Assembly (NCBI RefSeq): GCF_963921235.1
Contig: NC_086108.1
Location: 15,500,001-15,564,000 of the forward strand
DNA length: 64,000 bases
Direction: 5' to 3'
Origin: Mobula hypostoma
Taxonomy: Eukaryota
A model generated the notes under the pieces. That model made no database searches. It was not told where the DNA came from and saw nothing but the letters and a program-made list of their open reading frames with translations. Position 1 is the stretch's first letter; the number at the start of each line of letters is the position of its first letter. Made by a program: the position numbers and the translations under genes. Of the stretch, positions 5,227-64,000 are shown piece after piece.

Positions 5227-6419
5227 AGATTCCTCAGGTTTATCAGGAGGATGTGGTTGCAGGAACAGTTTTCTTACATGTTTTAGGTTTGACTGGCTCT
5301 ATTATTTCAGTTCTGGAGAATTTCTGTTCGGCAAACCGTTCAGTGTTCAACTTACTGTAACACTTATACATGCAGTGGATTTAAATATAGACAAAGAGTT
5401 CACTTTCTCTTAGGTGCATTTAAAACTTGCACGCTTTTGTATCATTCAACATTTATGTTATGTTAATTTATCACATCCTTTCTTTTGTGTCCTCTGTATT
5501 AATTGTCTTTGTAGTGCATCAGCTTCCATGCCATGCAGTTCACAGTGAGAGTCTCTGCATTAACTGGCTTTTTCATTACATGAAGGACCAAAACCTTGAT
5601 TTCATATTGGGGAATAATTGCTTACCATTGTTTTCATCTTGTCAAAATGCCCCAGTGGCTGGGCACTGAACCTGGGAGTTGTGCTCAACTTGGAGCCTTC
5701 ACTGAATTTAGATTGTTAGTGATGGACGTAGCTTTTCTTGCCTTTATTCCTCCTACACCTGCATTTTGCGGGTGTTGGAAGAGTTGTCTGTAATTGGCTC
5801 CAAATGCATAATGTGTTCATGTGATGTGCACTGTGAAGCTATAAAGCTGGTGTGTTTTCTGGAACTTTCCCTCAAAAGACATTGAAAGCAGAGTCCTTGA
5901 ATGTAGATTTATATAGTTTCTTGATGAGCAGAAGCGTTCTAGGATGAGTATAACCAGAGCTAAGGGACTGCAGATGCTGACATCTGGAACAAAAAGCAAA
6001 CTGCTGGAAGAGCTGTGGGTTGAGTAGCATCTGTGGGAGAAAAGAGCTGATGAGGTTTCAGGAAAGAGGGGGGAAGATATCCCAGTCACTTAATGATACC
6101 TGTCTCACCCATTTTACTCTCTTTATTTTCCTTTTCTACTCCCACGTCAACAATTCCTCCTTAGATGCTAACGACCTTTTGTATTTGTCCAGCAGTTGGT
6201 TTTTGCACCAGTACTAATGAGGGAATGTTGTACGTTCAATTTCAACGTTCACAGGGTGCACAGGGGAAGAAAAGCTTGGGCAACAGTGAATGTCTGCTCA
6301 GTGTTGTGGTAATGTACTCATCATTTCCGGTGTAAAAGAGTCAAAGAATACGCTTTCCTCGAGTCCCTTACACAACCTCAGTGCTTCATTGGTTGTTATG
6401 TGAGCACTACCATGTACTA

Positions 6420-6744: not shown

Positions 6745-6845
6745 CAAGAGAAAATCTACAAATGCTGGAGGAACTCGGCAGGCCAGGCAGCATGTATGGA
6801 AAAAAGTACGGTCGTTGTTTTAGGCAGAAACCCTTCAGCAGAAAA
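6745..6845 (-). mobile_element. Penelope-like element 3' terminus fragment
   Basis: aaatgctggaggaactcggcaggccaggcagcat... matches the terminus of the PLE at 14761-14860. Confidence 0.7.
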
Positions 6846-14760: not shown

Positions 14761-17700
14761 ACACACACAGAAAATGCTGGTGGAACGCACCAGGCCAGAC
14801 AGCATACTTAGGAAGAAGCACAGTCCACGTTTTGGGCTGAGTCCCTTCGTCAGGACTAATTGAAAGAAGAGATAGTAAGAGATTTGAAAGTGGGAGGGGG
14901 AGATCCGAAATGGTAGGAGAAGACAGGAGGGGGAGGGATGAAACTAAGACCTGGAAAGTTGATTGGCAAAAGGGATACAAGGCTGGAGAAGGGAGAGGAT
15001 CATGGGATGGGAGGCCTAGGGAGAAAGAAAGGGGGAGGGGAGCACCAGAGGAAGATGGAGAGCAGGCAAGGAGTTATTGTGAGAGGGACAGAGAGAGGAA
15101 AAAAAGAGTAAAAAAAAAAGGAGGAAAATAAACAAACAAATAAATAAATAAATAAATAAGGGATGGGGTAAGAAGGGGAGGAGGGGCTTTAATGGAAGTT
15201 GGAGAAGTCAATGTTCATGTCATCAGGTTGGAGGCTACCCAGATGGAATATAACGTGTTGTTCCTCCAACCTGAGTGTGGCTTCATCTTGACAGTAGAGG
15301 AGGCCATGGATAGACATATCAGAATGGGAATAGGGCGTGGAATTAAAATGTGTGGCCACTCAGAGATCCTGCTTTCTCTGGTGGACAGAGCGTAGGTGTT
15401 CAGCAAAATGGTCTTCCAGTCTGCACTGGGTCTCACCAATATATAGAAGGCTGCACTGGGAGCACCGGATGCAGTATATCACACCAGGCGACTCACAGGT
15501 AAAGTGTCGCCTCACCTGGAAGGACTGTCTGGGGCCCTGAATGGTGGTGAGGGAGGAAGTGTAAGGGCATGTGTAGCACTTGTTCCGCTTACAAGGATAA
15601 GTGCCGGGAGGGACATCGGTGGGAAGGGATGGGGGGGACGAATGGACAAGGGAGAAAGCAGAAAGAGGTGGGGAGGGAAAGATGTGCTTGGTGGTGGGAT
15701 CTCTTTGGAGGTGGCGCGTGCCAGAGTTTACGGAGAATTATATGTTGGACCCGGAGGCTGCTGGGGTGGTAGGTGAGGACAACCCTTTCCCTAGTGGGGT
15801 GACGGGAGGATGGCGTAAGAGCAGATGTGCGTGAAATGGTAGAGATGAGTTTGAGAGCAGAGTTGATGGTGGAGGAAGGGAAGCCCCTTTCTTTAAAAAG
15901 GGAAGACATCTCCTTCGTCCTGGAATGAAAGGCCTCATCCTGAGAGCAGATGTGGTGGAGACGGAGGAATTGCGAGAAAGGGATAGCATTTTTGCAAGAG
16001 ACAGGGTGCGAAGAGGAATCGTCCAGGTAGCTGTGAGAGTCAGTAGGCTTATAGTAGACACCAATAGATAAGCTGTCTCCAGAGATAGAGACAGAAAGAT
16101 CAAGAAAGGGGAGGGAGGTGTCGGAAATGGACCAGGTAAATTTGAGGACAGGGTGAAAGTTGGAGGCAAAGTTAATGAAGTCAATGAGCTCAGCATGCGT
16201 GCGGGAAGCAGCGCCAATGCAGTCGTCATGTAACAAAGGAAAAGTGGGGGACCGATACCACTATAGGCTTGGAACATGGACTGTTCCACAAAGCCAACAA
16301 AAAGGCAGGCATGGCTGGGACCCATATGGGTGCCAGTGACTACACCTTTAGTTTGGAGGAAGTGGGAGGAGCCAAAGGAGAAATTATTAAGAGTAAGGAC
16401 TAATTCTGCTAGACAGAGGAGAGTGGTGGTAGAGGGGAACTGGTTAGGTCTGGAATCCAAAAAGAAGCAGAGAGCTTTGAGACCTTCCTGGTGGGGGATG
16501 GAGTTATATAGGGACTGGACATCCATGGTGAAAATAAGGCAGTGGGGGCCAGGGAACTTAAAATCATTGAAAAAAATCCAGAGCGTGAGAAGTGTCACGA
16601 ACATAGGTGGGAAGGGATTGAACAAGGGGGGATAAAACAGTGTCGAGGTATGCAGAAATGAGTTCGGTGGGACAGGAGCAAGCTGAGACAATGGGTCTAT
16701 CTGGACAGGCAGGTTTGTGGATCTTGGGTAGGAGGTAGAAACGGGAAGTGCGGGGTGTGGGAACTATGAGGTTGGTGGCAGTGGATGGGAGATCCCCAGA
16801 GCTGATAAGGTTGGTGATGATGTGGGAGACAATGGCCTGGTGCTTCTTGGTGGGGTCATGATCGAGGAGTAAATAAGAGGAGGTATCCGCGAGTTGTCGC
16901 TCTGCCTCGGAAAGGTAGAGGTCAGTACACCAGATTACAACAGCACCCCCCTTATCAGCGGGTTTTATAGTAAGGTTAGGATTGGTGCAGAGGGAGTGGA
17001 GAGCAGAGCGTTCGGAAGGAGTGAGGTTGGAATGGGAACAAGGTGTGAAGTCGAGACGGTTGATGTCCTGTCGGCAGTTAGCAATAAAGAGATCCAGAGC
17101 AGACAGAAGACCAGAGCGGGGTGTCCATGAAAAGGAGGAGGGTTGAGGACGGGAGAAGGGGTCATCGGTGGGGGTAGGAGAGTCCTTGCCGAAGAAGTGG
17201 GCTCAAAGACAGAGCCGGCGGAAGAAGAATTCGGTGTCATGGCACATGTGGAACTCGCTGAGGTGTGGGCGAAGGTGGACAAATGTAAGGCCCTTACTGA
17301 GGACAGAGCGCTCTGCCTCAGAGAGTTGAAGGTCAGAGGGGATGGTAAAGACCCGGCATGGATGAGAGCTGGGATCAGAGGGGGAAGGGGGAGGGAAACT
17401 GGTAGTGTCAGTGGAGAAGGGAGGGTTGGGGTCAGAGGAAGATGGAGCCTTTGAGGGCGCAGGAGCTGATGATGGGATCTGAGGGAGACGGGGTTGCAGA
17501 GTGGTGGTGGGGGACCGGGGAGATGGGAGTCACAGTAGCAGCACATGAAGACCCGGCCTGGAGTCCAAGGCTGGAGTCACTGTTGGAGGTTGCGCAATCG
17601 CTTTGAAGGTGTCCATGGTCGTTGGAACCCGCATTGATGGTGCTGGAGTCCGGGTTTTGAATATGCCCCGGGTTGGTAGAGCCACCGACATTCATGCCTG

Positions 17701-19732: not shown

Positions 19733-21066
19733 GTCAATTGAATTGCATTGACTTTATTTCTTATATCCTTCTCATACATGACGAGTAAAAACCTTTATGT
19801 TACGTCGCCATCTAAATGTGCAATGTACAATCATAGTACAGGTCGACCTTCACTAACCCGCCACCACTGGGACCTTTTGAGTACTGGATTAGTGAAAATG
19901 CTGAATTACAGAAGGATCACATTAAGCATAATCGGTGCCAGATTATCGAAGGAACCGGATTACAGTTAGTCGGATTAGTGAAGGTCGACTGTAATTTATA
20001 ATAAATAGAACAGTCAATGCAACATAGAGTACACTCAAATCAGTGTGAGGTTATCAGTCTGATGGCCCGGTGGAAGAAGCTGTCCCGGAGCCTGTTGGCC
20101 CTGGCTTTTACGCCTGCGGCACCATTTCCTGGATGGTAGCAGCTGGAGTACATTGTGGTTGGGGTGACTAGGGTTCCCAATGATTCTTTTTACACACCTG
20201 TCCTTGCAAATATCCTGAATCATGGGAAGTTCACAACTACAGATGTTCTGGGCTGTCTGCACCATGCTCTGCAGAGTCCTGTGATTAAGGGAGGTACAGT
20301 TCCCTTACCAGGCAGTGATGCAGCCAGCCTCTCAATTGTGCCCCTGTAGAAAGTTCTTAGGATTTGGGGGCCATGCCAAACTTCCTCAACCATCTGAGGT
20401 GAAAGAGGCGCTGTTATGTCTTTTCCATCACGCAGCCTGTGTGTACAGACCATGTGAGGTCCTTGGTGATGTGGATGCTGAGGAACTTAAAGCTGTTTAC
20501 CCTCTCAGCCCCAGAACCACTGATGTCAATAGGAGTTAGCCCATCTCCATTCCTCCTGTAATCCACAACCAGCTCCTTTGTTTTTACGACATTGAGGGAG
20601 AGGTTGTTTTTTTGACACCATTGTGTCAGAGAGATGACTTCTTCCCGGTAGGCCACCTCGTTATTGTTTGAGATAAGGCCAATCAATTTAGTGTTGTCGG
20701 CAAATTTAATTAGCAGATTAAAGCTGTGGATGGCGACACAGTCATGGGTATACAGGGAGTAAAGGAGGGGACTCAGTACACAGCTCTGAAGGGCTCCTGT
20801 ATTGAGAGTCAGAGGAGTGGAGATGAGGGAGCCGACTCTTACAACCTGCTGACAATCTGACAGGAAGTCCAGGATCCAGCTGCACAAGGCAGGGTCAAGG
20901 CCGAGGTCTCTGAGCTTCTTGTCCAACCTGGATGGAACTATGGTGTTGAATGCTGAACTGTAGTCCAAGAACAGCATTCTCATGTAAGCATCCTTCTTCT
21001 CCAGATGTGTAAGGACGGTTTGTAGAGCAGTGGCTATTGTGTCATCTGTAGATTGGTTGTGTCGGT
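19733..21066 (-). mobile_element. Rex1/Babar-clade LINE 3' portion
   Basis: ORF 20414-20983: RMLFLDYSSAFNTIVP, WILDFL, GALQSCVLSPLLYSLYTHDC, KFADNT, LNVVKTKELVVDYR. Confidence 0.9.
19839..19991. mobile_element. 153-bp Tc1/mariner (Tigger-like) MITE
   Basis: TA|CAGGTCGACCTTCACTAACCCG ... CGGATTAGTGAAGGTCGACTG|TA. Near-perfect ~21-bp TIRs and TA duplication. Confidence 0.9.
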
Positions 21067-21261
21067 TGGGGGTATATAGTTATATAACAAGCTGAACCAT
21101 GCAGGGTTTTAGCTCAAACTGTAGATAATTCCTTTGCATCTGCTCAACCCACTGAATTCCTCCAGCAAATGGATTGTTGCTGGATTAACTTGGCATGGAC
21201 ATTAAGGACTGTTGAACCACAGGTGAAGTGAGTGAGTGAGGCCTCCATCAAACAGGGTCAA

Positions 21262-22920: not shown

Positions 22921-25900
22921 ATTGTGTTGTGATGCCCTGAACAAGTAACCGTAAGTCACATAAAAATCGTGTTTTCTGGTGAATTTGAATGATGTGATCA
23001 CTCCCTTTACACAATTTCTGACACTAAAGGACATAATTCTAACTGAATTTGTTTTGCATTGTTGAGTAGATTATGGTCTGAATTATTAACTCCTCTGGAA
23101 ACATTAAACATGCAAAGGTTTAAAATTTGCAAGGTTCCTGGCTCTCTAATAATGAGTGAAAAATGAGAAGTTTTCCAGAATTCCAGCATCTGCAGTCCCT
23201 CTTGTGTCTCCGTTTATGGATTAGACTATTGATTCTTTTTGTACAACAATAAATGGACATATAAATAACTCATAGTTGAGCTATTCATTCTTTCCCGCCC
23301 CCTCCCAGATCTCACCATGTTGTCCCATTGCTGTCAATCTCAGCAGCAGTAATAGCTTTAATCTTTAATTACCTCTAAGGTGCACTTCATCTATAAATAG
23401 CTGCCAAGAACAAGCACACAATATTAGTGATGGGTCTGGGAAAGCACAAAACTCCTAGTGTGCACTAGTTTGATTGCTATATATGGCTGCAAAGCCTCAA
23501 TGAAAAGGGGCAGCTTTCTAGAGCAGCCTGTAGTTAATGTAAAATGGGACTCAACATTGCAAAAGAGTGGACCAGTATGTCAAAGCAGACTCCAGCAGAA
23601 GACACATTAAATTGTACAAGCAAGTAATGACTAATGTAAATCGATTGATTAGCAGATGATGTACTCTTTTTTTTTGTGATTGTCATAATAAATCTGAGTA
23701 GTTCGGAACCAAGTTTTAGACCAGAACCCATGTAACCCAGATTCTGTCGTTCGTTTGTGCCTGCACACTTAGAACAGAACATAGAACAGTAGAGCACAGT
23801 ACAGGCACATCATGTTGAGCATAGAACATCTTACATACTCCAGGATCAGTCTAACCCTTCTCTCCCACATAGTTCAACTTTTTGTTTCATCCATGTGCCC
23901 ATCTAAGGTTCTGTTAAATGCCCCTAGTGTATCAGCCTCTACCACCACCCCTGGCAGTGTATTATACACGTTTACCACTCTCCTTTTTTTTAAAAAACCT
24001 CCCTCTGACATCCACCCCGCCCCCCCATATTTTCTCCAATTACCTTAAAATTACGCCTTCTTGTATTCGCCATTGCCACCCTGGAAAAGAGGTGCTGGCT
24101 GTCCACTTTATTAACGTGTCTTATCATCTTATACACCTCTGTCAAGTCACCTCTCATTCTCCCTTGCACTGAAGTGAAAAGCCGTAGCTTGCTCAACCTG
24201 TCCTCATAAGACAAACTCTCTAGTCCAGCAGCATCCTGGTAAATATCATCTGCACCCTCTTTAAAGCTTCCACATCCTTCCTATAACGAGGTGATCAGGA
24301 CTGAACATGATACTCCAAGTGTGGTCTAACAAGAGTTTCACAGAGTTACAACATCATCTAACGGCTCTTGAACTCAATCCACCAACTAATGAAGGCCAAT
24401 GTACCATTAGCCATCTTATCCATCCTATCAACTTGATCGGCAACTTTGGGGGATCTATGAATGTGGACTCCAAGATCCATATGTTCCTCCACACTGCTAA
24501 GAATCCTCCCATTAACCCTGTACTCTGTCTTCAAGTTTGACCTTCCAACGTGTATCACTTCATCCCTTTTTGGATTGAACTTCATCTGCCACTTCTCAGC
24601 CCAGTTCTGTCTCCTGTTAATCTACTGTTGTAACCTACAACATTATCCACAGCTCCAACAATCTTCATGTTATCTGCAAGCTTACTAATCCACCCTTCAA
24701 TTGACTCATCTAAGTCATTTATAAAAATCACAAAGAGCAGGGGTCCCAGAACCAATCCATGTGGAACACCACTGCTCCCCGACCTCTAGGTAGAATACGC
24801 TCCATTCACAACCACCCTCTGCCTTCTGTGGGCAAGCCAATTCTGAATCTACACAACCATGTTTTCATGAATCCCATGCCTCCTGACTTTCTGAATTACT
24901 TACCTTGTTGAACACCTACATACGTCATCCAGTACTCTAACTTCATCAGTTTTTGTCACTTCCTCAAAAAATGCAGTCAGGCTCATGAGGCATGACCTGT
25001 CCCTTACAAAGCCATGCTGACTATCCCTAAGCAGCCTATGGTTTTCCACATTCTCAGAAATCCTATCTCTCAAGAATTCTCATGATAGAGATGTAAGACT
25101 CTTTGGCGTACTATTCCCAGGGTTATCCCTATTACCTTTCTTGAGAAAAGAATAACATTTGTCACCATCTAATCACCTGTGGCCAGTGAAGATGGAAAGG
25201 AAAAGGAAAGGGTGAGCATTTTCAAGTTCCTGGATGTCAACATTTCTGAAGGTCAATCCAGGTCCAACATATTGATAAAATTACAAAGAAGGCACGATAG
25301 TGGCTACATTTCATTAGGAATTTGAGGAGACCTGGTATGACACCAAAGGCTCTCAAAAATTTCAACACAGGTACAAACGTAATTTGTACAAATTAGAAAA
25401 ATAGAGGGCTATGGGTAATCCTAGGTAATTTCTAAAGTAAGTACATGTTTGGCACAGCATTGTGGGCTGAAGGGCCTGTATTGTGCTGTAGGTTTTCTGT
25501 GTTTTTGTGTTTCTGTACTGTGGAGAGCATTCTAACTAGTTGTATTATTATCTGGTATGGAGGGGCAACTGCACAGGATTGGAAAAAGCTGTAGAAAGTT
25601 GCGAACTCAGCCAGCTCCATCATGGACACTAGCCCACCCCACCCCCTCAAGCGTCAAGGGCATCTTCAAATGATGATGCCTCAAAAAAGCAGCATCCATC
25701 ATTCAGGACCCTCATCACCCAGGACATGCCCTCTTCTCATTGCTACCATCAAAGAGAAGGTACAAGAACCTGAAAACACACACTCAACCTCTTAGGAACA
25801 GCTCTTCCCTTCCGCTATCAGATTTCTGAATGGACAATGAATTCATGTACACGACCTCAATGCTTTTTTTCTTGTTTGCTCATTTTGAACTACTTACTTA

Positions 25901-26003
25901 ATTTAATTTTTTAAGTATTTCTTATTGTAACATATTTTTATTATTATGTATTGCAATGTACTGCTGCCGCAAAGTAACAGATTTTGCAACATAGTCCAGT
26001 GAT

Positions 26004-26223
26004 GCCCTCCCCCTCCTGTCTTCTCCTATCATTTTGCATCTCCCCCTCCCCCTCCAGCTTTCAAATCCCTTACTCACTCTTCCTTCAGTTAGTCCTGACG
26101 AAGGGTCTTGGCCTGAAACGTCGACTGCGCCTCTTCCTATAGATGCTGCTTGGCCTGCTGCGTTCACCAGCAACTTTGATGTATGTTGCTTGAATTTCCA
26201 GCATCTGCAGAATTCCTGTTGTT
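26004..26223 (+). mobile_element. Solo Penelope-like 3' terminus (220 bp) carrying a hammerhead motif
   Basis: Matches the reverse complement of 14761-14940. Flanked by direct repeat TCCAGTGAT at 25995-26003 and 26224-26232. Confidence 0.9.
26091..26126 (+). ncRNA. Minimal type I hammerhead ribozyme motif in Penelope-like terminal repeat
   Basis: AGTC-CTGACGA-A-GGGT CTTG GCCT-GAAA-CG-TC-GACT. Stem I AGUC/GACU, core CUGANGA and GAAA, stem II, palindromic ACGU in place of stem III, GUC cleavage triplet ending at 26122. Confidence 0.8.
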
Positions 26224-27319
26224 TCCAGTGATATTAAACCTGATTTTTATAGTAAGAGGCATAGCAATCTCTTCCAGTCACAACCTTGGGTATATCCTGT
26301 CTAGCTCCGTGTCTTATCTATCCAAATGATTTTCAAAAATTCCATCACATCCTCTTTCTTAACATTGATATGTTCCAGCATATCAGTCTATTCTACACTG
26401 ATTTCTTCATTAAGGTCCATCTAACTGGTGAATACTGAAACAAAGTATTCATCAAGGACCTCCCTTACCTCCACCAACTCCAGGCATGTTTCCTCTTTCA
26501 TCCATAATCAGTCCTATCCTCACTCTAGTCATCCTCCTGTTCTTAACATAGATATAGAATGCCTTGAGGTTTCCTTAATCCAACTCGTTAAGGCTTTCTC
26601 ATGCCCCCTTCTAGCTCTCCTAAGTCCTTTCATAACCTCTGTGGAGCCCTGTCTGATCCTTGCTTCCCAAACTTTCAGTAAGCTTTTTTCTTTCTCTTGA
26701 TTAGAATCTCCACTTCTCTTGTCAGCCATAGTTCCTTCATGCTATCATACTTCCCTTGCCTTAATGAGACAAACCTATCGAGAACCCTATGCAAATGATC
26801 CCTAATCAACCTCCAGATTTCCATTGTGCATTTCCTGAATACCAATTTCCAAGTTACGCTCCCAAGTTCTTGCTGAATAGCACCGTAACTTCTCCTTGCC
26901 CATTTAAGTACTTTCCTATACTGTCTTCTCCTTCCCCTCTCCAAAGTCAGGGAGTTGTGGTCAATGTCTCTGAAATGTCACCCGCTGAGAGATCTGTCAC
27001 CTGACCAGGTTCATTCTTAGTACCAGATCCAGTATGGCCTCTCCTCCAGTTGGTCAGTCCGCATATTGTCTCAGGAATCCTTCCTGGACACACCAAACAA
27101 ATTCTGCCCCCGTAAATCTTTTGAACTAAGGTAGTGCCAATAATTCTTAGGGAACTTGAAGTCACCCATGAAAACAACACCATTATTTTTGCACCTTTCC
27201 AAAATCTGTCTCCTGATCTGCTCCCCAGTGTATCTGTTGCTATTGGGGCATCTATAGAATACTCCAATTAGAGAAACTTTCTGTTTCTGACTTCCACCCA
27301 CACTGACTCAATAGACATC

Positions 27320-27985: not shown

Positions 27986-29637
27986 ACCAATGAGAGGGAA
28001 CTTGATGATGGTGAGGACAATAGGAGTGAGGTTGATGTTCTGGAGCATGTTGATATTAAGGGAGAGGAGGTGTTGGAGTTGTTAAAATACATTAGGACGG
28101 ATAAGTCCACAGGCCCGGCCACGAGGCAAGGGAAGAGATTGCTGAGCCTCTGGCTAGGATCCTTATGTCCTCGTTAGCCACGGGAATGGTACCAGAGGAT
28201 TGGAGGGAGGCAAATGTTGTTCCCTTGTTCAAAAATAGGTAGCAGGGATAGTCCGGGTAATTATAGACCAGTGAGCCTTATGTCTGTGGTGGGAAAGCTG
28301 TTGGAAAAAATTCTTAGAGATAGGATCTACGGGCATTTAGAGAATCATGGTCTGATCAGGGATAGTCAGCATGGCTTTATGAAGGGCAGATCGTGTCTAA
28401 CAAGACTGATAGAGTTCTTTGAGGAGGTGACCAGGCATATAGATGAGGGTAGTGCAGTGGATGTGATCTACATGGATTTTAGTAAGGCATTTGACAAGGT
28501 TCCACATGGTAGGCTTATTCAGAAAGTTAGAAGGTATGGGATCCAGGGAAGTTTGGCCAGGTGGATTCAGAATTGGCTTGCCTGCAGAAGGCAGAGGGTC
28601 GTGGTGGAGGGAGTACATTCAGATTGGGGGATTGTGACTAGTGGTGTCCCACAAGGATCTGTTCTGGGACCTCTACTTTTCGTGATTTTTATTAACGACC
28701 TGGATGTAGGGGTAGAAGGGTGGGTTGGCAAGTTTGCAGATGACACAAGGGTTGGTGGTGTTGTAGATAGTGTAGAGGATTGTCAAAGATTGCAGAGAGA
28801 CATTAATAGGATGCAGAAGTGGGCTGAGAAGTGGCAGATGGAGTTCAACCCGGAGAAGTGTGAGGTGGTACACTTTGGAAGGACAAATTCCAAGGCAGAG
28901 TACAAAGTAAATGGCAGGATACTTGGTAGTGTGGAGGAGCAGAGGGATCTCGGGGTACATGTCCACAGATCCCTGAAAGTTGCCTCACAGGTGGATAGGG
29001 TAGTTAAGAAAGCTTATGGGGTGTTAGCTTTAGTAAGTCGAGGGATAGAGTTTAAGAGTCGCGATGTAATGATGCAGCTCTATAAAACTCTGGTTAGGCC
29101 ACACTTGGAGTACTGTGTCCAGTTCTGGTCACCTCACTATAGGAAGGATGTGGAAGCATTGGAAAGGGTACAGAGGAGATTTACCAGGATGCTGCCTGGT
29201 TTAGAAAGTATGCATTATGATCAGAGATTAAGGGAGCTAGGGCTTTACTCTTTGGAGAGAAGGAGGATGAGAGGAGACATGATAGAGGTGTACAAGATAA
29301 TAAGAGGAATAGATAGAGTGGATAGCCAGTGCCTCTTCCCCAGGGCACCACTGCTCAATACAAGAGGACATGGCTTTAAGGTAAGGGGTGGGAAGTTCAA
29401 GGGGGACGTTAGAGGAAGGTTTTTTACTCAGAGAGTGGTTGGTGCGTGGAATGCACTGCCTGAGTCAGTGGTGGAGGCAGATACACTAGTGAAGTTTAAG
29501 AGACTACTAGACAAGTATATGGAGGAATCTAAGGTGGGGGCTTATATGGGAGGCAGGGTTTGAGGGTTGGCACAACATTGTGGGCCGAAGGGCCTGTACT
29601 GTGCTGTACTATTATTCTATGTTCTATGTTCTATGTT
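27986..29637 (+). mobile_element. Young CR1 LINE, 5'-truncated, uninterrupted RT domain
   Basis: 449-aa ORF 28214-29563 with [13 protein letters not shown] and KFADD. (TTCTATG)n tail at ~29613-29637. Confidence 0.97.
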
Positions 29638-30250: not shown

Positions 30251-32459
30251 CCATGTACCTGTCCAGAAGTCTCTGAAAAGACCCTATCATATCCGCCTCT
30301 ACCAGTGTTGCAGGCAGCCCAATCCACGCACTCACCACTCTCTGCATAAAAAAAACTTACCCCTGACATCTTCTCTGTACCTACTTCCAGGCACCTTAAA
30401 ACTGCACCCTCCCATGCTAGACATTTCAGCCCTGGGAAAAAGCCTCTGACTATCCACACGATCAATGCCTCTCATCATCTTATACAGCTCTATCAGGTCA
30501 CCTCTCATTCTCCATCGCTCCAAGGAAAAAAGGCCGAGTTCATTCAACCTGTTCTCATAAGGCACGCTCCCCAATCCAGGCAACATCCTTGTAAGTCTCC
30601 TCTGCACCCTTTCTGTGGTTTCCACACTTTCCTACAGTGAGGCGACCAGAACTGAGCACAGTACTCCAAGTGGGGTCTGACCAGGGTCCTAGAGAGCTGC
30701 AACATTACCTCTCGGCTCCTAAACTCACTCCCACAATTGATGAAGGCCAATACACCATATGCTTTCTTAACCACAGCGTCAACCTACGCAACAGCTGTGA
30801 GTGTCCTATGGACTGGGACCTCAAGATGCCTCTGATCCTCCACACTGCCAAGAGTCTTACCATTAATACTATATTCTGCCATCATATTTGACCTACCAAA
30901 ATGAACCACCACACACTTATCTGGGTTGAACTCCATCTGCCACTTCTCAGCCCAGTTTTGCATCCTATCAATGTCCCACTGTAACCTCTGACAGACCTCC
31001 ACGCTATCCACAATACCCCCAAGATTTGTGTCATCAGTAGATTTACTAACCCATCCCTCCACTTCCTCATCCAGGTCATTTATAAAAATCACAAAGAGTA
31101 GGGGTCCCAGAAGGATCCCTGAGGCACACCACTGGTCGCCGATCTCCATGCAGAATATGACCTGTCTACAACCACTCTTTGCCTTCTGTGGGCAAGCCAA
31201 TTCTGGATCCACAAAGCAATGTCCCCTTGGATCCCATGCCTTCTTACTTTCTCAATAAGCCTTGCATGGGGTACCCTGTCAAATGCCTTGCTGAAATCCA
31301 TATACGCTACATCTACTGCTCTTCCTTCATCAATGTGTTTAGCCACATTCTCAAAAAATTCAATCAGGCTCGCAAGGCACGATCTGCCTTTGACAAAGCC
31401 ATGCTGAGTATTCCTAATCATATTATGCCTCTCCAAATGTTCATAAATCCTGCCTCTCAGTACCTTCTCCATCCACTTACCAACCACTGAAATAAGACTC
31501 ACTGGTCTATAATCTCCTGAGCTATCTCTACTCCCTTTCTTGAATAAGGGAACAACATCCGCAACCCTCCAAACCTCCGGAACCTCTCCCGTCCCCATTG
31601 ATGATGCAAAGATCATCGCCAGAGGCTCAGCAATCTCCTTCCTTGCCTCCCACAGTAGCCTGGGGTACGTCTCATCTGGTCCCAGTGACTTATCCAACTT
31701 GATGCTTTCCAAAAGCTCCAGCACATCCTCTTTCTTAATATCTACATGCTCAAGCTTTTCAGTCCGCTGTAAGTCATCCCTACAATCACCAAGATCCTTT
31801 TCCGTAGTGAATACTGAAGCGAAGTACTCATTAAGTACCTCTGCTATCTCCTCTGGTTCCATACACATTTTTCCACTGTCACACTTGATTGGTCCTATTC
31901 TCTCACATCTTATTCTCTTGATCTTCACATACTTTGTAGAATGCCTTGGGGTTTTCCTTAATCGTGTCCGCAAGGCCTTCTCATGGCCCCTTCTGGGTCT
32001 CCTCATTTCATTCTTAGGCTCCTTCCTGCTAGCCTTATAATCTTCTAGATCTCTATCATTACCTAGATTTTTGAACCTTTTGTAAGCTCTTCTTCTTGAC
32101 TTGATTTTCAACAGCCTTTGTACACCACGGTTCCTGTACCCTACCATCCTTTCCCTGTCTCATTGGAACATACCTAGCAGAACGCCACGCAAATATCCCC
32201 TGAACATTTGCTGCAATTCTTCCGTATGTTTCCCTGAGAACATTTGTTCCCAATTTATGCTTGCAAGTTCCTGCCTGATAGCCTCATATTTCCCCTTACT
32301 TCAATTAAACGCTTTCCTCACTTGTCTGTTCCTATCCCTCTCCAATGCTATGGTAAAGGAGATAAAATTGTGATCACTATCTCCAAATGCTCTCCCACTG
32401 AGAGATCTGACACCTGACCAGGTTCATTTCCCAATACCAGATCAAGTACAGCTAGGGTA

Positions 32460-41419: not shown

Positions 41420-41590
41420 AAACGAGAAAATTGACAGTTGCTGGAAATCTAAACAAAACAAACAAAAACAAATAAACACACACACACACACCCACCCACA
41501 CACCTGGAGGACCTCAGCAGGCCAGGCAGCATCTATGGAAAAAAGTACAGTCAACATTTCGGCCGAGACCCTTTGGCAGGACTGGAAATA
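41420..41590 (-). mobile_element. Penelope-like 3' terminus fragment
   Basis: cagcaggccaggcagcatctatgg...cagtcaacatttcggccgagaccctttggcaggact matches the other PLE termini. Confidence 0.8.
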
Positions 41591-42766: not shown

Positions 42767-44907
42767 TAGGGATCGCCAACCCGTTGATTGCGATCGACTG
42801 GTCGATCTTTGAGACTTTGCCCAGTAGATCCCGAAAAAAATCAAAAATAAATACAGAAGTACTGTTGTAATATGAGCACCGTGTTTTCAGCGTAGCTTGT
42901 GCTGCATCAAAGTGACCAATCAGATTAGATAAGAGTACAGACGGTCGCAAACATCAATGTACGACAGTTGTCCCCAGCCTCCGGGCCACGAAGCATGCAG
43001 CGGTGCAGCGGTAGTCGGTACGCACCCAGCACATCTTTAAGAAAAAAAGCCGAAATAATCAAGCTAATTAATTAGGTGACACCCAGCACATAAGTGTCGG
43101 CCCAGATCAGAGGCGACGCAATCGGCAATCGCTTGTGATATCCTGATAGCATGGTGGAGGCTCCACGAAAGAAGGCGAAAATGTACAAATTCCATCCAGA
43201 ATGGGAAGAGGAATTTCTATTTACCTTGGTGAAAGACAAGTGTGTATGTATGTTGTGCCACCAAACACAAGAACTGACTAAAAGAGGGTATCTGGAGCGG
43301 CACCGCAATACCAACCACCAGAAATTTAAAGACACCTACCCCCCAAAGAGTGCAATTTGTGCCAGGAAAGTTGAGGAGCTGAAATCGGGGTTGAAGGCCC
43401 AGCAATCGTTTTTCACAAAACATGCTGCTCAAAATAAGGCTGCTGTTGAAGCATCATTTCCTGTAAATCACCTTTTGACTAAACACAAGAAGCCTTTTAC
43501 AGATGGCGATTTATTCAAGGAAGCAATGGCCATTACCGCAGAGACTGTTTTTAATGACTTTAAAAACAAAAACGGCATCACAACCGCAATACATAATATA
43601 CCACTTGGCTCTGCAACAGTGATAAGGAGGGTAGAGTCATTGTCAGAGGACGTGGATCAACAAGTGTTAAAGGACTTGTCACTCTGTGAATATTTTTCAC
43701 TACAGTTCGATGAATGCCTGGATGTAATGCAAACAGCTCAGCATGTTTTATTTGTCAGAATGGCTTTCCAGGATTTTACAACAAAGGAGGACTTCCTCAC
43801 TCTTTTGCAATTAAAGGAGAGAACGAGAGGTGAGGATATCTACAATGAGTTTTAAAAATATGTCCGTGAAAATGACATCCCCATTCATAAACTGGTGGTA
43901 ATTACTACTGATGGGGCCCCAGCAATGCACGATATGCGCGTTAGTTTTATAGCACTAAAAGTCAGGGTCAACTTATCAATGTGAACTTGCATTTTCACAG
44001 ATGAAAATTATTAAATCTAAGTACAGGAGCTGACTTACTGACAGACACATCACTGGGGTTGCCAACTTTCTCACTCCCAAATAAGGGACAAAAGTAGCAG
44101 TCAAATCCCGGGACATTTGTGTTTACCCCGAGAAAGACTACCATGACCATGAAGCCTTGCGCGGGCACCTGTGTGCGCATGTGCTTACGTGCCGATATTT
44201 TTACCCCACGAATCGGTTTTGGCTTAATCTTCATTATTTCTACTTTATATAGGCTGTCTATTTATCATATCATTGCTGCTTTTACTATATGTTAGTGTTA
44301 TTTAAGGTTTTATGTGTTATTTGGCATGATTTGGTCGGTTTTTTTTGGGTCTGGGAACGCTCAAAAATTTTTTCCATATAAGTTAATGGTAATTGCTTCT
44401 TCGGCGTAAAGCATTTCCGCATGAAAGGTTTCATAGGAACACACTACCTTAGCGGGGGAAATACGGGACAGTTGGCAACCCCACACCTCACAGACAGTCT
44501 CAGACTGGCTGTCTGTAGTCATGAGCCAAATTTCAGGGAACTAGCAGAAAGTAGTTAGTCCCAGTCATCACACTGAGTGCAACAGTCAATTTTTATTCAT
44601 TTATTTTTCGTGTTGAAATAAAATTAAATAATGAAACTTAGAATTAAAGGTGTGAAGTATTGTAATATTCTTAAAGAAAGACAGCTATGGCCTGTTTGAG
44701 ATGCTAGTTACAGTGTTTTCTTGTTTGAATTAATTTGAAAGTTTGACAAAAGTATTTTGTGTAATTCAAATATAATTAAAAATAAAAGGCCTCAAATTGG
44801 AAGTACAATCTGAGCTGTTTTTTCTCTAAACGATTTAGTAGGTAGATCTTGCCTTTCACTAAGGTTGAAGTAGGGGATCTTGGGCTTAAAAAGGTTGGTG
44901 ACCACTA
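42767..44907 (+). mobile_element. hAT (Charlie/GTF2IRD2-like) DNA transposon, internally deleted transposase pseudogene
   Basis: TIRs TAGGGATCGCCAACC / GGTTGGTGACCACTA. 8-bp TSD CGATAGGG (42759-42766) / CGACAGGG (44908-44915). ORF 43151-43855 has a BED-like finger (FHPEWEEEF..CVCMLC..ERH) and FSLQFDE, then ITTDGAPAM after a stop and C-terminal STYQCELAFSQMKIIKSKYR. Confidence 0.93.
44054..44483. mobile_element. 430-bp hAT MITE (Blackjack-like termini) nested in the hAT transposase gene
   Basis: Perfect 14-bp TIR TGGGGTTGCCAACT / AGTTGGCAACCCCA. 8-bp TSD CACATCAC (44046-44053) / CACCTCAC (44484-44491). Confidence 0.92.
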
Positions 44908-48100: not shown

Positions 48101-49345
48101 TAGCCATGTGTTAAACTGTATGATCTTCCTACTTGTTCTCACTAACATGTAGCATGAGTTGCAATCCCGAGATCACAACCCAGGAGGTCCTGTCCTTTAA
48201 CCTAGCACCTAACTCCCTGAAACACACATAAAAGTTGCTGGTGAACGCAGCAGGCCAGGCAGCATCTGTAGGAAGAGGTGCAGTCGACATTTCGGGCCGA
48301 GACCCTTCGTTAGAACTAACTGAAGGAAGAGTGAGTAAGATCCGCTCAGGGGATCTCCCATCCACTGCTACCAACCTTATAGTTCCCACACCCCGCACTT
48401 CCCGTTTCTACCTCCTACCCAAGATCCACAAACCTGCCTGTCCTGGCCGACCTATTGTCTCAGCTTGCTCCTGCCCCACCGAACTCGTTTCTGCATTTCT
48501 ACAGCAACTTTTATGTGTGTTACTTGAATTTCCAGCATCTGCAGAATTCCTGTTGTTTGCACCTAACTCCCTGAACTCACTTTGCTGAATCTTGTCACTT
48601 TTCCTACCCATGCCATTGGTAGCTATAAGGACCATGATCTCTGGCTGCTCACTTTCCCACTCAAGTACGCTGAGGACTCAATCTGAGATATCCCGGATTC
48701 TTGTATCCGGGGGCAACGTACCGTCTGGGAATCTCATACTCATCCACAGAACCTCCTTCCTGTTCTCTTAACTAACGATTCCCCTATCACCACAGCTCAC
48801 CTCTTCACTCTCCCTTGCTTTCGGAGTCATAGAGCCAGACTCAATGCCAGAGACCTGACTACTGTGACTTTCCTCTGCGTGGTTATCCCCCTCAACAATT
48901 ATACCTGCTTTTTAAACCCCTTTCTCCTTCCTGACTGTCACCCAGTTTCCTGTGTCCTGCGCCTTGGGTGTAACTTCCTCTCTATCATCCCTTCAGCCTC
49001 CTGAATGATCCAAGTTCATCCAGTTACAGCTCCGACTTGATTACATGAAGTGTTAGAAGCTGCAGCTGGATGCACTTCTCGCAGGTGTAGTAGTCAGAGA
49101 CAGTGAAGGTCTCCCTGTCTTTCCACATCCCGCAAGAGGAGCATTTAACTATCCTGCCTGGTATCCCTACTGTCCAACTGTGCAAATATAAAGAAGGAAA
49201 ACATACATAAACTGGAGAAAAAAATTACCTGCAGTATTTTTGCCTTCTGTTACTGAAGCTCACTCACTGAAGCCTCAAAGATCTAAAGCCTCAAAATCTC
49301 CACTCTAAGACTGTTCACTCCAACAAAGGCTGCTCTGCTTGCCCC
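45145..49345 (-). mobile_element. Near full-length decayed CR1 LINE (ORF1 esterase-like + ORF2 endonuclease/RT)
   Basis: RT ORFs 45802-46581. Endonuclease LSCIYFNARSIVGK...IGETWL (47463-47957). ORF1 ATNGMGRKSD...EFRELG|ARLKDRTSWVVISGL across the PLE insert. CEKCIQLQLL-type zinc-finger remnant near 49050-49090. Confidence 0.9.
48222..48558. mobile_element. Compact rearranged Penelope-like insertion
   Basis: Inverted terminus (48222-48339), then a + strand RT fragment ([11 protein letters not shown], 48340-48500), then a + strand extreme 3' end. 17-bp TSD GCACCTAACTCCCTGAA at 48205-48221 and 48559-48575. Confidence 0.92.
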
Positions 49346-62299: not shown

Positions 62300-63176
62300 G
62301 CTGACTAGCCCAGTCCCGTTATATTCATTTGTTACGCTCCAGGATAGCGTTACAGTGAATGGCTGTGAGCCTGTGTGCGCTTGGCAACTGTTACCAAGAG
62401 ACATAAAGAGAGAAAGCAGCTCGGATAGCCATTGGCGGTTCAGCTGCTGCTGCTCATTTGGAAGCAGGAAACCAAGGTAGCTGGAGTAGAGAATTCTTCC
62501 GCATCAGCTGTGATGGTGCAGACAAGGGGCTCAGGTGCAGCTGCTGAGGGACAAGAGTATGCAATAGCAGCGCTAATGTGCCACTGAAAGGATTGCTTCT
62601 CCAGCACAATGAAGGTGCCAGACTCCTTGCTAATTCACGAGATTGCTGCATAATTCTGTCGGCGTTCCTTTTCGCAAGTCCGTAGCACTGATTAATGTAT
62701 ATGGAAGGCTGAGGATTTCAAATTGTGCAGGAATACAGCTTGCACTGCTATTTTTGCCCACTTCGCTTACTTATCAATTGATTTCCTGATGCTGTCAGTA
62801 TTTCAGAAGACTTCAACGGGAGAAGAAATGTAGCATGTAGAGAGCAGTGTGAGAGGCTTGTGCATTTCTCCCAGGGCTCGCCGTCTTTTCCCGCTCTTCA
62901 TACAATAGCTCTCAATGAACAGCTGGAAGCAGTACACTGGAGGGAGCTCGTCAACGGCATTGCAATACTGAGGTGTGTCAGCAGTCCGCTGTTGCTGAGG
63001 AGGCATGTGCAGCTGTTAAACGCTGACTGCAGAGACCAACAAGAGCAGCAGAGTGAGCCGGAGGAGCGGAACGAGCCGGAGGAGCGGAACGAGCCGCAGA
63101 AACAGCAGCAGCAGTAACAGATGCCTTGCCAGCGATCTGCAGTCACTGTGGACTGTAGCCCACACCCATCTGTGTC
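62300..63176 (+). promoter_or_regulatory. Putative GPR52 promoter / 5' leader region
   Basis: No recognisable TE, more CpGs than the flanking intron, and directly upstream of the GPR52 ATG. Contains several short uORFs. TSS cannot be placed from sequence. Confidence 0.5.
63055..63096 (+). repeat. 18-bp tandem repeat (GAGCCGGAGGAGCGGAAC x2.3) in GPR52 leader
   Basis: Exact units at 63055-63072 and 63073-63090 plus a partial GAGCCG at 63091-63096. Confidence 0.9.
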
Positions 63177-64000
63177 ATGAACCACTCCACGACTGAATGG
63201 AATTCTAGGAGCCTGAGCAATACCTCAGCCAACTTATCCAATCACCACGCTTGCCCTCTCGGCTTTGGCTACAACGACATGGTTGATGTATGTGTTTTAG
63301 AGACTGTGATTATTGTGCTGTTGACAGTCCTGATCATTGTGGGGAATCTGACAGTCATCTTTGTGTTCCACTGTGCCCCTCTCCTTCACCACTACACCAC
63401 CAGCTATTTCATCCAGACGATGGCCTATGCCGACCTGCTGGTAGGGGTAAGCTGCTTGGTTCCTGCTCTCTCCCTCCTTCACTACTCCACAGGTATGCAA
63501 GAGTCCCTGACCTGCCAGGTGTTTGGGTACACCATTTCAGTGTTGAAAAGCGTTTCTATGGCATGCCTAGCATGCATCAGTATTGACCGTTACCTTGCCA
63601 TTACCAAACCATTGTCCTACAGCCAGCTGGTAACTCCATGCCGCCTTAGGATCTGTATCATTCTTATATGGATTTACTCTGGGACAGTGTTCTTGCCCTC
63701 ATTCTTTGGATGGGAGAAACCCGGATATCATGGAGACATCTTTGAATGGTGTGCCACCTTTTGGGAAACTAATGCGTACTTCACAGGCTTTATAGTCTGC
63801 TTGTTATATGCCCCAGCAGCCTTCATTATCTGTTTCACCTACTTCCACATATTTAAAATCTGCCGGCAACACACCAAAGAAATCAACGAACGCCGTGCCC
63901 GATTCCCCAGCCAGGAGGTGGAATCTGCTGAAGGTAGCCCCAGCCCCGACCGGCGCTATGCAATGGTCCTGTTTCGGATTACAAGTGTCTTCTACGTGCT
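63177..64000 (+). CDS. GPR52: G protein-coupled receptor 52, intronless, truncated by window end (274 codons visible)
   Basis: Open frame from ATG 63177 (G at -3) to the window end: [103 protein letters not shown]...[14 protein letters not shown]...[14 protein letters not shown]...[20 protein letters not shown]...[21 protein letters not shown] at 63585-63593. [16 protein letters not shown] and PDRRYAM are GPR52-type rather than GPR21-type, as recalled. Confidence 0.95.

What the first reader, a model, noticed from the sequence alone, without database searches (positions are those of the whole stretch)
26091..26126. Hammerhead ribozyme with intact core on the sense strand of the RABGAP1L intron
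Seen: AGUC CUGACGA A GGGU-CUUG-GCCU GAAA CG UC GACU. All core nucleotides are present, stem I closes the motif, and the predicted cut is after C26122 (GUC). Stem III is reduced to the palindrome ACGU. Established: PLE terminal repeats carry minimal type I hammerheads whose palindromic stem III favours cleavage as dimers, and some amniote introns retain exapted hammerheads. Inference: this is the only core-intact copy I found, and it is oriented to be transcribed in the RABGAP1L pre-mRNA about 37 kb upstream of nested GPR52, so it could cut the intron. As a lone minimal copy with an extra A and a G-U pair at the base of stem II, it may be weak or inactive.
Basis: partly seen in the sequence, partly recalled or inferred. 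Interest (0 to 1): 0.8.

Follow-up and report, generated by a model that had tools for sequence, protein, structure and literature searches.

The report
Penelope retroelement tail with minimal hammerhead
The hammerhead-ribozyme motif is really there, but it is one young, truncated copy of a jumping gene (a Penelope-like element) whose tail carries this motif tens of thousands of times in the genome, so it is an ordinary repeat and not a special device of the RABGAP1L gene.

Summary
The motif at 26091-26126 (+) is exactly as described. All hammerhead core letters are present, helix I has 4 bp, and ACGU stands in place of helix III. My minimal-hammerhead descriptor hit it once in the window and hit 0 of 300 random 64-kb sequences.

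It is not a lone or exapted ribozyme. [quoted passage not shown] The exact 32-letter core occurs 1,996 times in this genome. With three one- or two-letter variants the total is 48,422, against reversed-pattern controls of 0.

The window copy is 98-100% identical to other dispersed copies, so it is intact because it is young, not because it is selected. Rfam finds no hammerhead, even at E<=10. The predicted folds are inactive, and there is no intact sense partner within 104 kb.

This is the published minimal hammerhead of PLE terminal repeats (PMC4209133). Single copies of that kind did not cut in vitro. Earlier notes of this scan reached the same verdict on other pieces of this genome. Interest is low. 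A side observation: copy 5' ends pile up at the motif's 5' edge.

The parts
26091..26126 (+). Minimal type I hammerhead motif (min-HHR). Helix I 26091-94/26123-26; core CUGACGA 26095-26101; unpaired A 26102; helix II 26103-06/26111-14 with loop 26107-10; GAAA 26115-18; palindrome ACGU 26118-21; C17 26122; predicted cut 26122/26123.
   Evidence: Sequence read. It was the single descriptor hit in the window, against 0 of 300 random sequences. The exact 32-mer occurs 1,996 times in the genome, control 0.
26005..26223 (+). 5'-truncated 3' fragment (219 bp) of a Penelope-like retroelement. It holds 86 nt of 3' UTR, the hammerhead, and about 97 nt to the element's tail (...GCAGAATTCCTGTTGTT).
   Evidence: BLAST to sister copies covers query positions 2-220 of 26004-26223 at 98-100% identity for the closest (L027 189/189, L018 216/219, L001 and L002 215/219). 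Sister copies continue upstream into an ORF ending ...YIGETRRRLGDRFAEHLRSV...NIDFSNFR*, whose stop lies 299 nt before the 32-mer. That ORF has a weak GIY-YIG Pfam match (E=6.9e-4, 20.3 bits, below the 22.6 cut-off). A sharp repeat-depth block at 25970-26237 appears in contigs of four runs.
25995..26003 (.). Left copy of the 9-bp direct repeat TCCAGTGAT (putative target-site duplication).
   Evidence: Read directly. The same 9 letters recur at 26224-26232, immediately after the element's last base.
26224..26232 (.). Right copy of the 9-bp direct repeat TCCAGTGAT.
14775..15259 (-). Old, decayed copy of the same PLE 3' region. Its hammerhead equivalent carries G12>A and 16.1 U>G and is about 75-82% identical. 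It lies downstream of PLE reverse-transcriptase ORF remnants at 15589-17576 (-).
   Evidence: ORFs listed. The 15738-16763 ORF gave only a weak RVT_1 match (E=0.001, below the cut-off).
48221..48340 (-). Antisense copy of the PLE tail (about 92% identical). Its core is mutated (CTAACGA; GAAATG).
41515..41583 (-). Antisense decayed copy of the hammerhead region (CTGCCAA core).
6763..6836 (-). Antisense decayed copy of the hammerhead region (CTGCTGA core; AAAACAAC).
63159..63998 (+). GPR52 coding sequence (runs off the window end).
   Evidence: ORF. Pfam 7tm_1 match at E=4.4e-32. The best hits are named GPR52 or GPR52-like: 98% identity to a stingray protein and 89-92% to shark proteins.

Best explanation
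The motif is the minimal hammerhead carried in the terminal (pseudo-LTR) region of a hugely amplified Penelope-like retroelement (PLE) of this cartilaginous-fish genome. The window holds a young, 5'-truncated 219-bp tail fragment that landed, by target-primed reverse transcription, in the sense orientation in an intron of a RABGAP1L-type gene.

In the element's own life cycle the motif has no helix III of its own. It can only form an active site as a double hammerhead, in which two copies share a 4-bp ACGU:ACGU helix III and swap their helix I strands, or with help from the element's protein.

At this locus there is one copy and no intact sense partner. It is predicted to fold into an inactive rod, or to pair with its own upstream PLE sequence. 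It most likely does nothing to the host transcript.

Shown: the motif, the family membership, the copy numbers, the truncation and flanking direct repeat, the youth of the copy, and the orientation in the gene. Inferred: the dimer mechanism (from published work on this class) and inactivity at this site (from folds, the lack of a partner and published in-vitro results on other members).
For: 1. Family. The exact 32-mer occurs 987+1009 = 1,996 times. Variants with C at the loop position and/or at 11.1 occur 39,517, 6,052 and 857 times. All reversed-pattern controls are 0, for a total of 48,422.

2. PLE identity. In sister copies an ORF ends 299 nt upstream of the motif with a GIY-YIG-like ...LLYIGETRRRLGDRFAEHLRSV... 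end. Most copies end about 100-130 nt downstream of the motif. Inverted 5'-truncated partners are common, in 9 of 31 sampled copies, as published for PLEs (PMC8557442, passages read).

3. Match to the published min-HHR description (PMC4209133, parts 1-2 of 4 read): no loop 3, helix I of 4-5 bp, an unpaired nucleotide between A9 and 10.1, a palindromic 15.2-16.2, thousands of mostly single truncated copies, and close pairs on opposite strands.

4. Youth. The copy is 98-100% identical to its nearest dispersed copies, and a 9-bp direct repeat flanks it.

5. Inactivity.
- The monomer minimum-energy fold (-10.0 kcal/mol) pairs core GACG with CGUC, which includes C17. The hammerhead-competent fold is -6.0.
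- A double hammerhead scores -9.5, against -30.1 for the best dimer.
- In 81 nt of native context, CUGA and GAAGGGU pair with upstream PLE sequence, with a z-score of -0.46.
- In 104 kb (the window plus 20 kb on each side) the only other + strand copy is 47 kb away, with a broken helix III and a broken helix I.
- Published: a single min-HHR showed no cleavage and dimers showed low cleavage (PMC4209133). The Anolis PLE hammerhead cut only with protein present, was not needed for insertion in vitro, and left no RNA-seq ends at the cut site (PMC11167929, passages read).
Against: - The core is fully intact and the copy is on the transcribed strand, so low-level cleavage cannot be excluded by sequence alone.
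- Nearest-neighbour folding ignores the tertiary contacts that stabilise hammerheads.
- Tens of thousands of related transcribed copies could in principle serve as trans partners. If the PLE protein is expressed, it might assist, as reported for the Anolis element.
- At family level, copy 5' ends are 4-5 times more frequent exactly at the predicted cut site (61) than 3 nt downstream (11) or 4 nt upstream (15). About 35 of the 61 look like microhomology junctions, but about 26 do not. This could be a faint trace of cleavage in vivo.
- The GIY-YIG and RVT_1 Pfam matches are below the curated cut-offs. The PLE assignment therefore rests on the motif, the ORF end, the architecture and the literature. 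I ran no phylogeny.
Confidence: 0.9

Rival explanations
1. The copy is a working ribozyme at this locus. It cuts the RABGAP1L pre-mRNA after C26122, either as a monomer or by pairing in trans with other PLE-tail RNAs or with PLE protein help. This would influence RABGAP1L or nested GPR52 expression.
For: The core is intact and on the sense strand. The genome holds at least 48,422 potential partner sequences. Amniotes do have conserved intronic hammerheads derived from retroelement motifs (PMC6155905, passages read). The Anolis PLE hammerhead is protein-assisted (PMC11167929).
Against: - There is no helix III, and 10.1-11.1 is G.U or A-U instead of the conserved G-C.
- The predicted folds are inactive.
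- There is no intact sense partner in 104 kb.
- The copy is as young as its dispersed sisters, so nothing indicates retention.
- Equal + and - genome counts (987 vs 1,009; 19,737 vs 19,780) show only that the family is dispersed.
- Single min-HHRs were inactive in vitro (PMC4209133).
Confidence: 0.04
2. In this PLE family the hammerhead-shaped segment no longer works, or does not mainly work, by self-cleavage. It acts as a structural element that marks the 5' end of the retrotransposition template (a transcription start or a reverse-transcriptase stop) and primes snap-back or inverted synthesis through helix I. The window copy is still an inert by-product.
For: - Breakpoints (three non-family letters followed by an exact 31-mer) number 1,553 at the first base of helix I, against 382 five nt upstream and 224 five nt downstream.
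- 12 of 31 sampled copies begin or invert within about 25 nt of that edge.
- Three tails in L043 all start at (T)AGTCCTGACG.
- 20 of the 61 junctions at G1.1 read CAGGACT|GCACC. That is what cDNA snap-back through the helix I complement would give (my inference).
- The most amplified variant (39,517 copies) has U, not C, at 11.1.
- HHR mutants did not affect insertion in vitro in Anolis (PMC11167929). PLE clades without canonical HHRs proliferate well (PMC8557442).
Against: - The core letters are kept in all four abundant variants. That fits selection for catalysis in the master copies.
- The breakpoint counts were not normalised across many positions (only 3 positions around each site).
- A hot spot could instead reflect the boundary of the pseudo-LTR in full-length elements, which I did not examine.
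Confidence: 0.2
3. The motif is a chance match with no relation to hammerheads.
For: No Rfam hammerhead family matches, even at E<=10. A loose CTGANGA-N14-GAAA pattern is expected 0.25 times per window by chance.
Against: The full descriptor hit 0 of 300 random windows. The motif is a fixed part of a PLE tail present in tens of thousands of copies. It matches feature by feature the published PLE min-HHR, which conventional descriptors missed (PMC4209133).
Confidence: 0.01

Closest known systems
Minimal hammerheads (min-HHR) in the pseudo-LTRs of metazoan Penelope-like elements (Cervera and de la Pena 2014, PMC4209133; parts 1-2 of 4 read)
   Same: Catalytic boxes without helix III or loop 3; a palindromic 15.2-16.2 (ACGU); a short helix I (4 bp); an unpaired nucleotide between A9 and helix II; a place in the PLE terminal region; thousands of mostly single, truncated copies; frequent close pairs on opposite strands.
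   Different: Here 11.1 is U, giving G.U or a shifted A-U pair, in the window copy and in the dominant variant (39,517 copies), instead of the conserved G10.1-C11.1. Helix II has 4 bp rather than the 6-8 bp described for several families. The host is a cartilaginous fish, a group not named in the parts of that paper I read. My one literature search on this ('hammerhead', 'Penelope', 'shark') found 4 papers, none describing PLE hammerheads in sharks or rays.
Poseidon-type PLE of Anolis carolinensis (PAc) and its hammerhead (PMC11167929; passages read)
   Same: A PLE pseudo-LTR hammerhead lacking helix III. A 'tail' is defined by internal initiation of reverse transcription, and this family's copies likewise end at two alternative 3' ends about 35-40 nt apart.
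   Different: In PAc the ORF starts inside the hammerhead (at helix II). Here the motif lies 299 nt after the ORF stop in the copies sampled. The protein-assisted cleavage shown for PAc was not tested here.
[quoted passage not shown]
   Same: A type I hammerhead of retroelement ancestry, on the sense strand of an intron.
   Different: Those are single-copy and conserved across classes of vertebrates, with canonical helices and loop-loop contacts. This one is a recent copy of a 48,000-member repeat, lacks helix III, and shows no sign of retention.
Animal non-LTR retrozymes (tandem hammerhead repeats giving small circular RNAs; PMC7229834, abstract seen in a search listing; bioRxiv 10.64898/2026.07.22.740005, abstract and Results part 1 read)
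   Same: The same class of type I hammerhead, derived from PLE pseudo-LTRs. That preprint treats monomeric derivatives as dead offspring.
   Different: There is no tandem array here. The one 331-bp tandem I looked at elsewhere in the genome (L043) consists of PLE tails alternating with duplicated target sequence, not a retrozyme unit.
Double hammerheads of newt satellite and viroid multimers (Forster et al. 1988, as cited in PMC4209133)
   Same: A weak or absent helix III is completed by pairing two copies through a palindrome.
   Different: Those copies are adjacent in one multimeric transcript. This locus has a single copy.

Membership tests
Hammerhead ribozyme, type I (general definition; Rfam hammerhead families) | Conserved core: C3 U4 G5 A6 N7 G8 A9, G12 A13 A14, A15.1-U16.1, H17 | tested here: met
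   CUGACGA at 26095-26101, GAA at 26115-26117, A26118, U26121, C26122.
Hammerhead ribozyme, type I (general definition; Rfam hammerhead families) | Scores at or above an Rfam hammerhead model's gathering threshold | tested here: not met
   0 matches at gathering thresholds over the whole window. No hammerhead family at E<=10 on 25900-26300.
Hammerhead ribozyme, type I (general definition; Rfam hammerhead families) | Three helices, with helix III closed within the molecule | tested here: not met
   A15.1 C15.2 G16.2 U16.1 are contiguous with a zero-nucleotide loop, so helix III cannot form in a monomer. Helices I and II can form.
Hammerhead ribozyme, type I (general definition; Rfam hammerhead families) | G10.1-C11.1 pair at the base of helix II | tested here: not met
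   Position 26114 is U, giving G.U with a bulged A26102 or A26102-U26114 without a bulge. 6,909 sister copies (6,052+857) have C there.
Hammerhead ribozyme, type I (general definition; Rfam hammerhead families) | Site-specific self-cleavage after H17 | not testable with these tools
   Needs in-vitro transcription or RNA-end sequencing. No run on record as RNA and no raw reads were available.
min-HHR of metazoan Penelope-like elements (PMC4209133) | Catalytic boxes with no helix III or loop 3, and a palindromic 15.2-16.2 | tested here: met
   ACGU at 26118-26121.
min-HHR of metazoan Penelope-like elements (PMC4209133) | Unpaired nucleotide between A9 and 10.1; short helix I (4-5 bp) | tested here: met
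   A26102 is unpaired under the bulge parse. Helix I is AGUC/GACU, 4 bp.
min-HHR of metazoan Penelope-like elements (PMC4209133) | Lies in the terminal repeat region of an element encoding RT plus GIY-YIG endonuclease | tested here: met
   In sister copies the motif follows, by 299 nt, an ORF ending in a GIY-YIG-like motif (the Pfam match E=6.9e-4 is below the cut-off). It precedes the element's 3' end by about 100-130 nt. I did not examine a full-length element with both flanking repeats.
min-HHR of metazoan Penelope-like elements (PMC4209133) | Large families of copies in the genome, mostly single or truncated, with some close inverted pairs | tested here: met
   48,422 exact copies of four variants. 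9 of 31 sampled copies have an inverted partner at the motif.
Exapted intronic hammerheads of amniotes | Conservation of the motif at the orthologous intron across distant species | not testable with these tools
   No other vertebrate genomes are held. Indirect evidence points against it: 98-100% identity to dispersed copies and an intact flanking direct repeat.
Non-LTR retrozyme | Head-to-tail tandem repeats, each with a hammerhead | tested here: not met
   A single copy. The nearest + strand copy is 47 kb away and decayed.

The most novel reading that the evidence does not exclude
In this ray PLE family the hammerhead-shaped segment may act chiefly as a structural landmark of retrotransposition rather than as a cutter. 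The first base of helix I would be the 5' end of the template RNA (a transcription start or a hard stop for the reverse transcriptase). The helix I complement in the cDNA would prime snap-back synthesis. Together these would generate the solo 'hammerhead-to-tail' mini-copies and the inverted pseudo-LTRs typical of PLEs. The RABGAP1L copy would remain inert.
Probability: 0.2. Interest if true: 0.45.

Novelty: new member of a known kind. Interest (0 to 1): 0.12.

Why it matters
For the host gene it matters little. A sense-strand hammerhead motif in a RABGAP1L intron upstream of GPR52 looks striking in isolation, but it is one of tens of thousands of identical retroelement tails, with no sign of selection at this site.

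The practical value is a caution. In genomes rich in Penelope-like elements (fishes, amphibians, reptiles, many invertebrates), core-intact minimal hammerheads in introns are the default expectation. They should be judged against family copy number and copy age before any exaptation is proposed.

At family level the data add a cartilaginous-fish example with very high copy number. In it the most successful variant lacks the canonical G10.1-C11.1 pair, and copy 5' ends pile up at the motif's 5' edge rather than at its cut site. Both points bear on the open question of what hammerheads do for PLEs.

Tried and rejected
This is not evidence against the motif, because helix III is missing by design.

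- My first pattern (CTGANGA-N14-GAAA) had the wrong spacing (the motif has N13) and found only an unrelated site at 5213-5237 (-). It was superseded by the descriptor scan.

- A DNA search of the own genome with 26040-26220 returned nothing, because very common words are skipped. Pattern counts replaced it.

- RNA evidence: no RNA holder was listed. All 19 runs were Logan contigs of guessed kind. Laying four of them could not show RNA ends; the table of begin/end places read 'none', as contigs cannot show ends. It showed a high-depth repeat block at 25970-26237, and short-sided joints 25973>26225/6 that may be copies of a host repeat lacking the PLE piece. I could not confirm that host repeat in my own data: there was no second adjacent left+right flank among the window and 49 loci. 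So 'nested in an older repeat' stays a weak inference.

I examined only 20 kb on each side of the window.

- Footprint of cleavage in genomic copies: 61 breakpoints at G1.1, against 11 and 15 at neighbouring positions, out of 9,479 normal copies. About 35 of the 61 are explained by microhomology (20 CAG, 10 CCT, 5 AGT). This is inconclusive.

- Cross-species covariation and the orthologous-site test: no vertebrate genome collection is held, so these were not done.

- No protein structure or complex jobs were warranted.

- Supplementary figures of PMC4209133 (alignments of fish PLE min-HHRs) were not consulted. They might show closer published relatives.

Full report
**Observation**

In hammerhead numbering:
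- helix I: 26091-26094 paired with 26123-26126 (4 bp)
- C3-A9: 26095-26101
- an extra A: 26102
- helix II: 26103-26106 paired with 26111-26114 (G.U, G-C, G-C, U.G), closing the loop CUUG
- G12-A14 and A15.1: 26115-26118
- ACGU (15.1, 15.2, 16.2, 16.1): 26118-26121
- C17: 26122, so the predicted cut is 26122/26123

A second parse without a bulge (A26102-U26114, G-C, G-C, 7-nt loop) is equally possible.

I wrote a descriptor after the published description of minimal hammerheads. It required the core boxes, helix I of at least 4 bp, helix II of 3-8 bp with or without one unpaired letter, a 15.2/16.2 pair, and U then H. It hit the window once, at this site, and hit none of 300 random 64-kb sequences on both strands. 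So the motif is not chance.

That is expected for a motif lacking helix III.

**What it belongs to**

The own-genome DNA search returned nothing, because very common words are skipped. Pattern counts showed why. Each reversed-pattern control was 0.

| 32-mer variant | Copies |
|---|---|
| Exact window form (987 + and 1,009 - strand) | 1,996 |
| C in loop II (the window's T26108) | 39,517 |
| C in loop II and C at 11.1 | 6,052 |
| C at 11.1 only | 857 |
| Total | 48,422 |

The genome has 3.48 Gb.

I aligned 30 fetched copies with the window copy.
- The similarity runs upstream into an ORF ending ...CSRCGLLYIGETRRRLGDRFAEHLRSV...GMNIDFSNFR*. Its stop lies 299 nt before the 32-mer. It gives a weak GIY-YIG Pfam match (E=6.9e-4, 20.3 bits, below the 22.6 cut-off).
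- Downstream, the copies end about 100-130 nt after the motif, at one of two alternative ends.
- 9 of the 31 copies have an inverted, 5'-truncated partner abutting the motif. 3 of 31 begin at the motif's first or second base. 19 of 31 continue into the normal upstream sequence.

This combination is the published anatomy of Penelope-like elements (PLEs): an RT/GIY-YIG ORF, terminal-region hammerheads, heavy 5' truncation, adjacent inverted copies and a 'tail' (PMC4209133, parts 1-2 read; PMC8557442, passages read). The window itself holds PLE-type RT ORF remnants at 15589-17576 (-), followed by an old copy of the same 3' region at 15259-14775 (-).

**The window copy**

- BLAST of 26004-26223 against the fetched loci aligns positions 2-220. 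So the PLE piece is 26005-26223: 86 nt of 3' UTR, the motif, and about 97 nt to the tail.
- Its nearest relatives are 100% (189/189), 98.6% (216/219) and 98.2% (215/219, twice) identical. It therefore belongs to a young subfamily.
- The 9 letters TCCAGTGAT stand at 25995-26003 and again at 26224-26232, directly at the borders. I read this as a target-site duplication.
- Contigs of four public runs show a sharply bounded high-depth block at 25970-26237.
- The window holds five copies of the hammerhead region. The other four are on the - strand and have core substitutions.

**Host gene**

- The ORF at 63159-63998 (+) is GPR52. It matches 7tm_1 at E=4.4e-32. It is 98% identical to a stingray GPR52-like protein and 89-92% identical to shark proteins.
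- On the same contig and strand, DUF3694 exons lie about 69-95 kb upstream of the window, and RabGAP-TBC exons about 103-118 kb downstream.
- So the window lies inside a RABGAP1-type gene, read on the + strand. The name RABGAP1L follows from the GPR52 nesting, which I recall and did not test.

**How it most likely works**

The published model for this class is a double hammerhead. With no helix III of its own, a copy becomes active only when a second copy supplies the other half of a palindromic helix III. Single min-HHRs did not cleave in vitro, and dimers cleaved weakly (PMC4209133). In an Anolis PLE the hammerhead cut only when the element's protein was present, was dispensable for insertion in vitro, and left no RNA-seq ends at the cut site (PMC11167929, passages).

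For the window copy:
- The 36-nt monomer's best fold (-10.0 kcal/mol) pairs G5-G8 (GACG) with C15.2-C17 (CGUC). This buries both the core and the cut site. The hammerhead-competent fold is -6.0.
- Two copies prefer an extended duplex (-30.1 kcal/mol) to the double hammerhead (-9.5).
- In 81 nt of native context, CUGA and GAAGGGU pair with upstream PLE sequence, and the fold is no more stable than shuffles (z = -0.46).
- Within 104 kb (the window plus 20 kb on each side), the only other + strand copy is 47 kb downstream, with broken helices I and III.
- The 10.1-11.1 pair is G.U or A-U rather than the conserved G-C.

I conclude that this copy is inert, or nearly so, in the RABGAP1L pre-mRNA. 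Energy models ignore tertiary contacts, so this conclusion is an inference.

**Family-level test for cleavage in vivo**

If cleaved RNAs served as templates, copy 5' ends should pile up at G1.1. I counted places where three non-family letters precede an exact 31-mer.

| Position | Breakpoints |
|---|---|
| G1.1 (predicted cut site) | 61 |
| 3 nt downstream of G1.1 | 11 |
| 4 nt upstream of G1.1 | 15 |
| Normal copies with the same anchor | 9,479 |
| First base of helix I | 1,553 |
| 5 nt upstream of helix I | 382 |
| 5 nt downstream of helix I | 224 |
| Copies of the 32-mer variant used in that anchor | 39,517 |

- Of the 61 at G1.1, 20 read CAGGACT|GCACC. That is what snap-back of a cDNA through the helix I complement would give; this is my inference.
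- Another 10 read CCTGAC|TGC (an internal deletion) and 5 read AGT. That leaves about 26.

So the strong landmark is the motif's 5' edge, not its cut site. The evidence for cleavage in vivo is at most faint.

**Comparison and novelty**

The motif meets the published min-HHR features: no loop 3, a palindromic 15.2-16.2, an unpaired letter after A9, a short helix I, a place in a PLE terminal region, and large families with inverted pairs. The exception is G10.1-C11.1, which 6,909 sister copies keep.

It fails the Rfam thresholds and has no intramolecular helix III. I therefore file it as a PLE min-HHR, not as a canonical type I hammerhead.

It is unlike the conserved amniote intronic hammerheads (PMC6155905, passages). 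It is multicopy and young, and it lacks their helices. It is not a retrozyme array. The one 331-bp tandem I inspected elsewhere (L043) is PLE tails alternating with duplicated target sequence.

Earlier notes of this scan on other pieces of the same genome reached the same verdict. I reached mine from my own calls.

The kind is known. This is a new member, in a cartilaginous fish. One literature search ('hammerhead', 'Penelope', 'shark') found 4 papers, none of them describing such elements in sharks or rays. A 2026 preprint sampled one chondrichthyan for retrozymes.

**Verdict**

- There is no support for a role at this locus.
- Interest is low, 0.12.

Noticed in passing
Genome-wide (G000); seen in L004-L007, L009, L012, L019, L021-L024, L026, L043; equivalent to window 26091: Copy 5' ends and inversion junctions pile up at the first base of helix I. 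There are 1,553 breakpoints there, against 382 and 224 five nt to either side. 12 of 31 sampled copies start or invert within about 25 nt of it. The predicted cut site has only 61. This may mark the template RNA's 5' end or a pseudo-LTR boundary.
   Followed up: partly
Genome-wide counts; window 26114 (position 11.1) and 26108 (loop II): The most amplified variant (39,517 exact copies) has U, not C, at 11.1, so it lacks the canonical G10.1-C11.1 pair. The canonical form has 6,052 copies. Both differences are CpG>TpG changes fixed in master copies. Either the wobble is tolerated, or catalysis is not needed for spread.
   Followed up: partly
L043:337-1134 (G000:C1:116385336-116386133): Three PLE tails, each starting at or within a few bases of the hammerhead's 5' edge (two at TAGTCCTGACG; the first lacks the initial AGTCC), alternate with a duplicated 226-bp piece of target DNA that looks like part of a gypsy-type reverse transcriptase. 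The period is 331 bp. It looks like repeated insertion with long target duplication, not a retrozyme.
   Followed up: partly
Copies (e.g. L003, L008, L015 versus L001, L017, WIN); window 26179-26223: The copies end at two alternative 3' ends about 35-40 nt apart (...GATGTGTGTTGC versus ...GCAGAATTCCTGTTGTT). This is reminiscent of the 30-40-bp PLE 'tail' and of internal initiation of reverse transcription (PMC8557442, PMC11167929). There is also a weak Rfam UnaL2 3'-element match at 26168-26221 (E=3.9, far below its threshold).
   Followed up: no
window 3380-5047 (+), 20414-21079 (-), 28178-29563 (+), 30784-32159 (-), 46012-46596 (-): Several LINE-type reverse-transcriptase ORF remnants (the longest is 461 aa at 28178-29563) fill the intron. 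A 238-aa ORF at 43139-43855 (+) has C2H2/BED-like cysteines and histidines; I did not identify it.
   Followed up: no
window plus L046-L049 (C50:15480001-15584000): In this 104-kb stretch, 2 copies of the PLE hammerhead region are on the + strand, and 7 on the - strand (8 with the decayed copy at 6763-6836, seen only). This is an antisense excess typical of retroelements in introns, but too few to test.
   Followed up: partly
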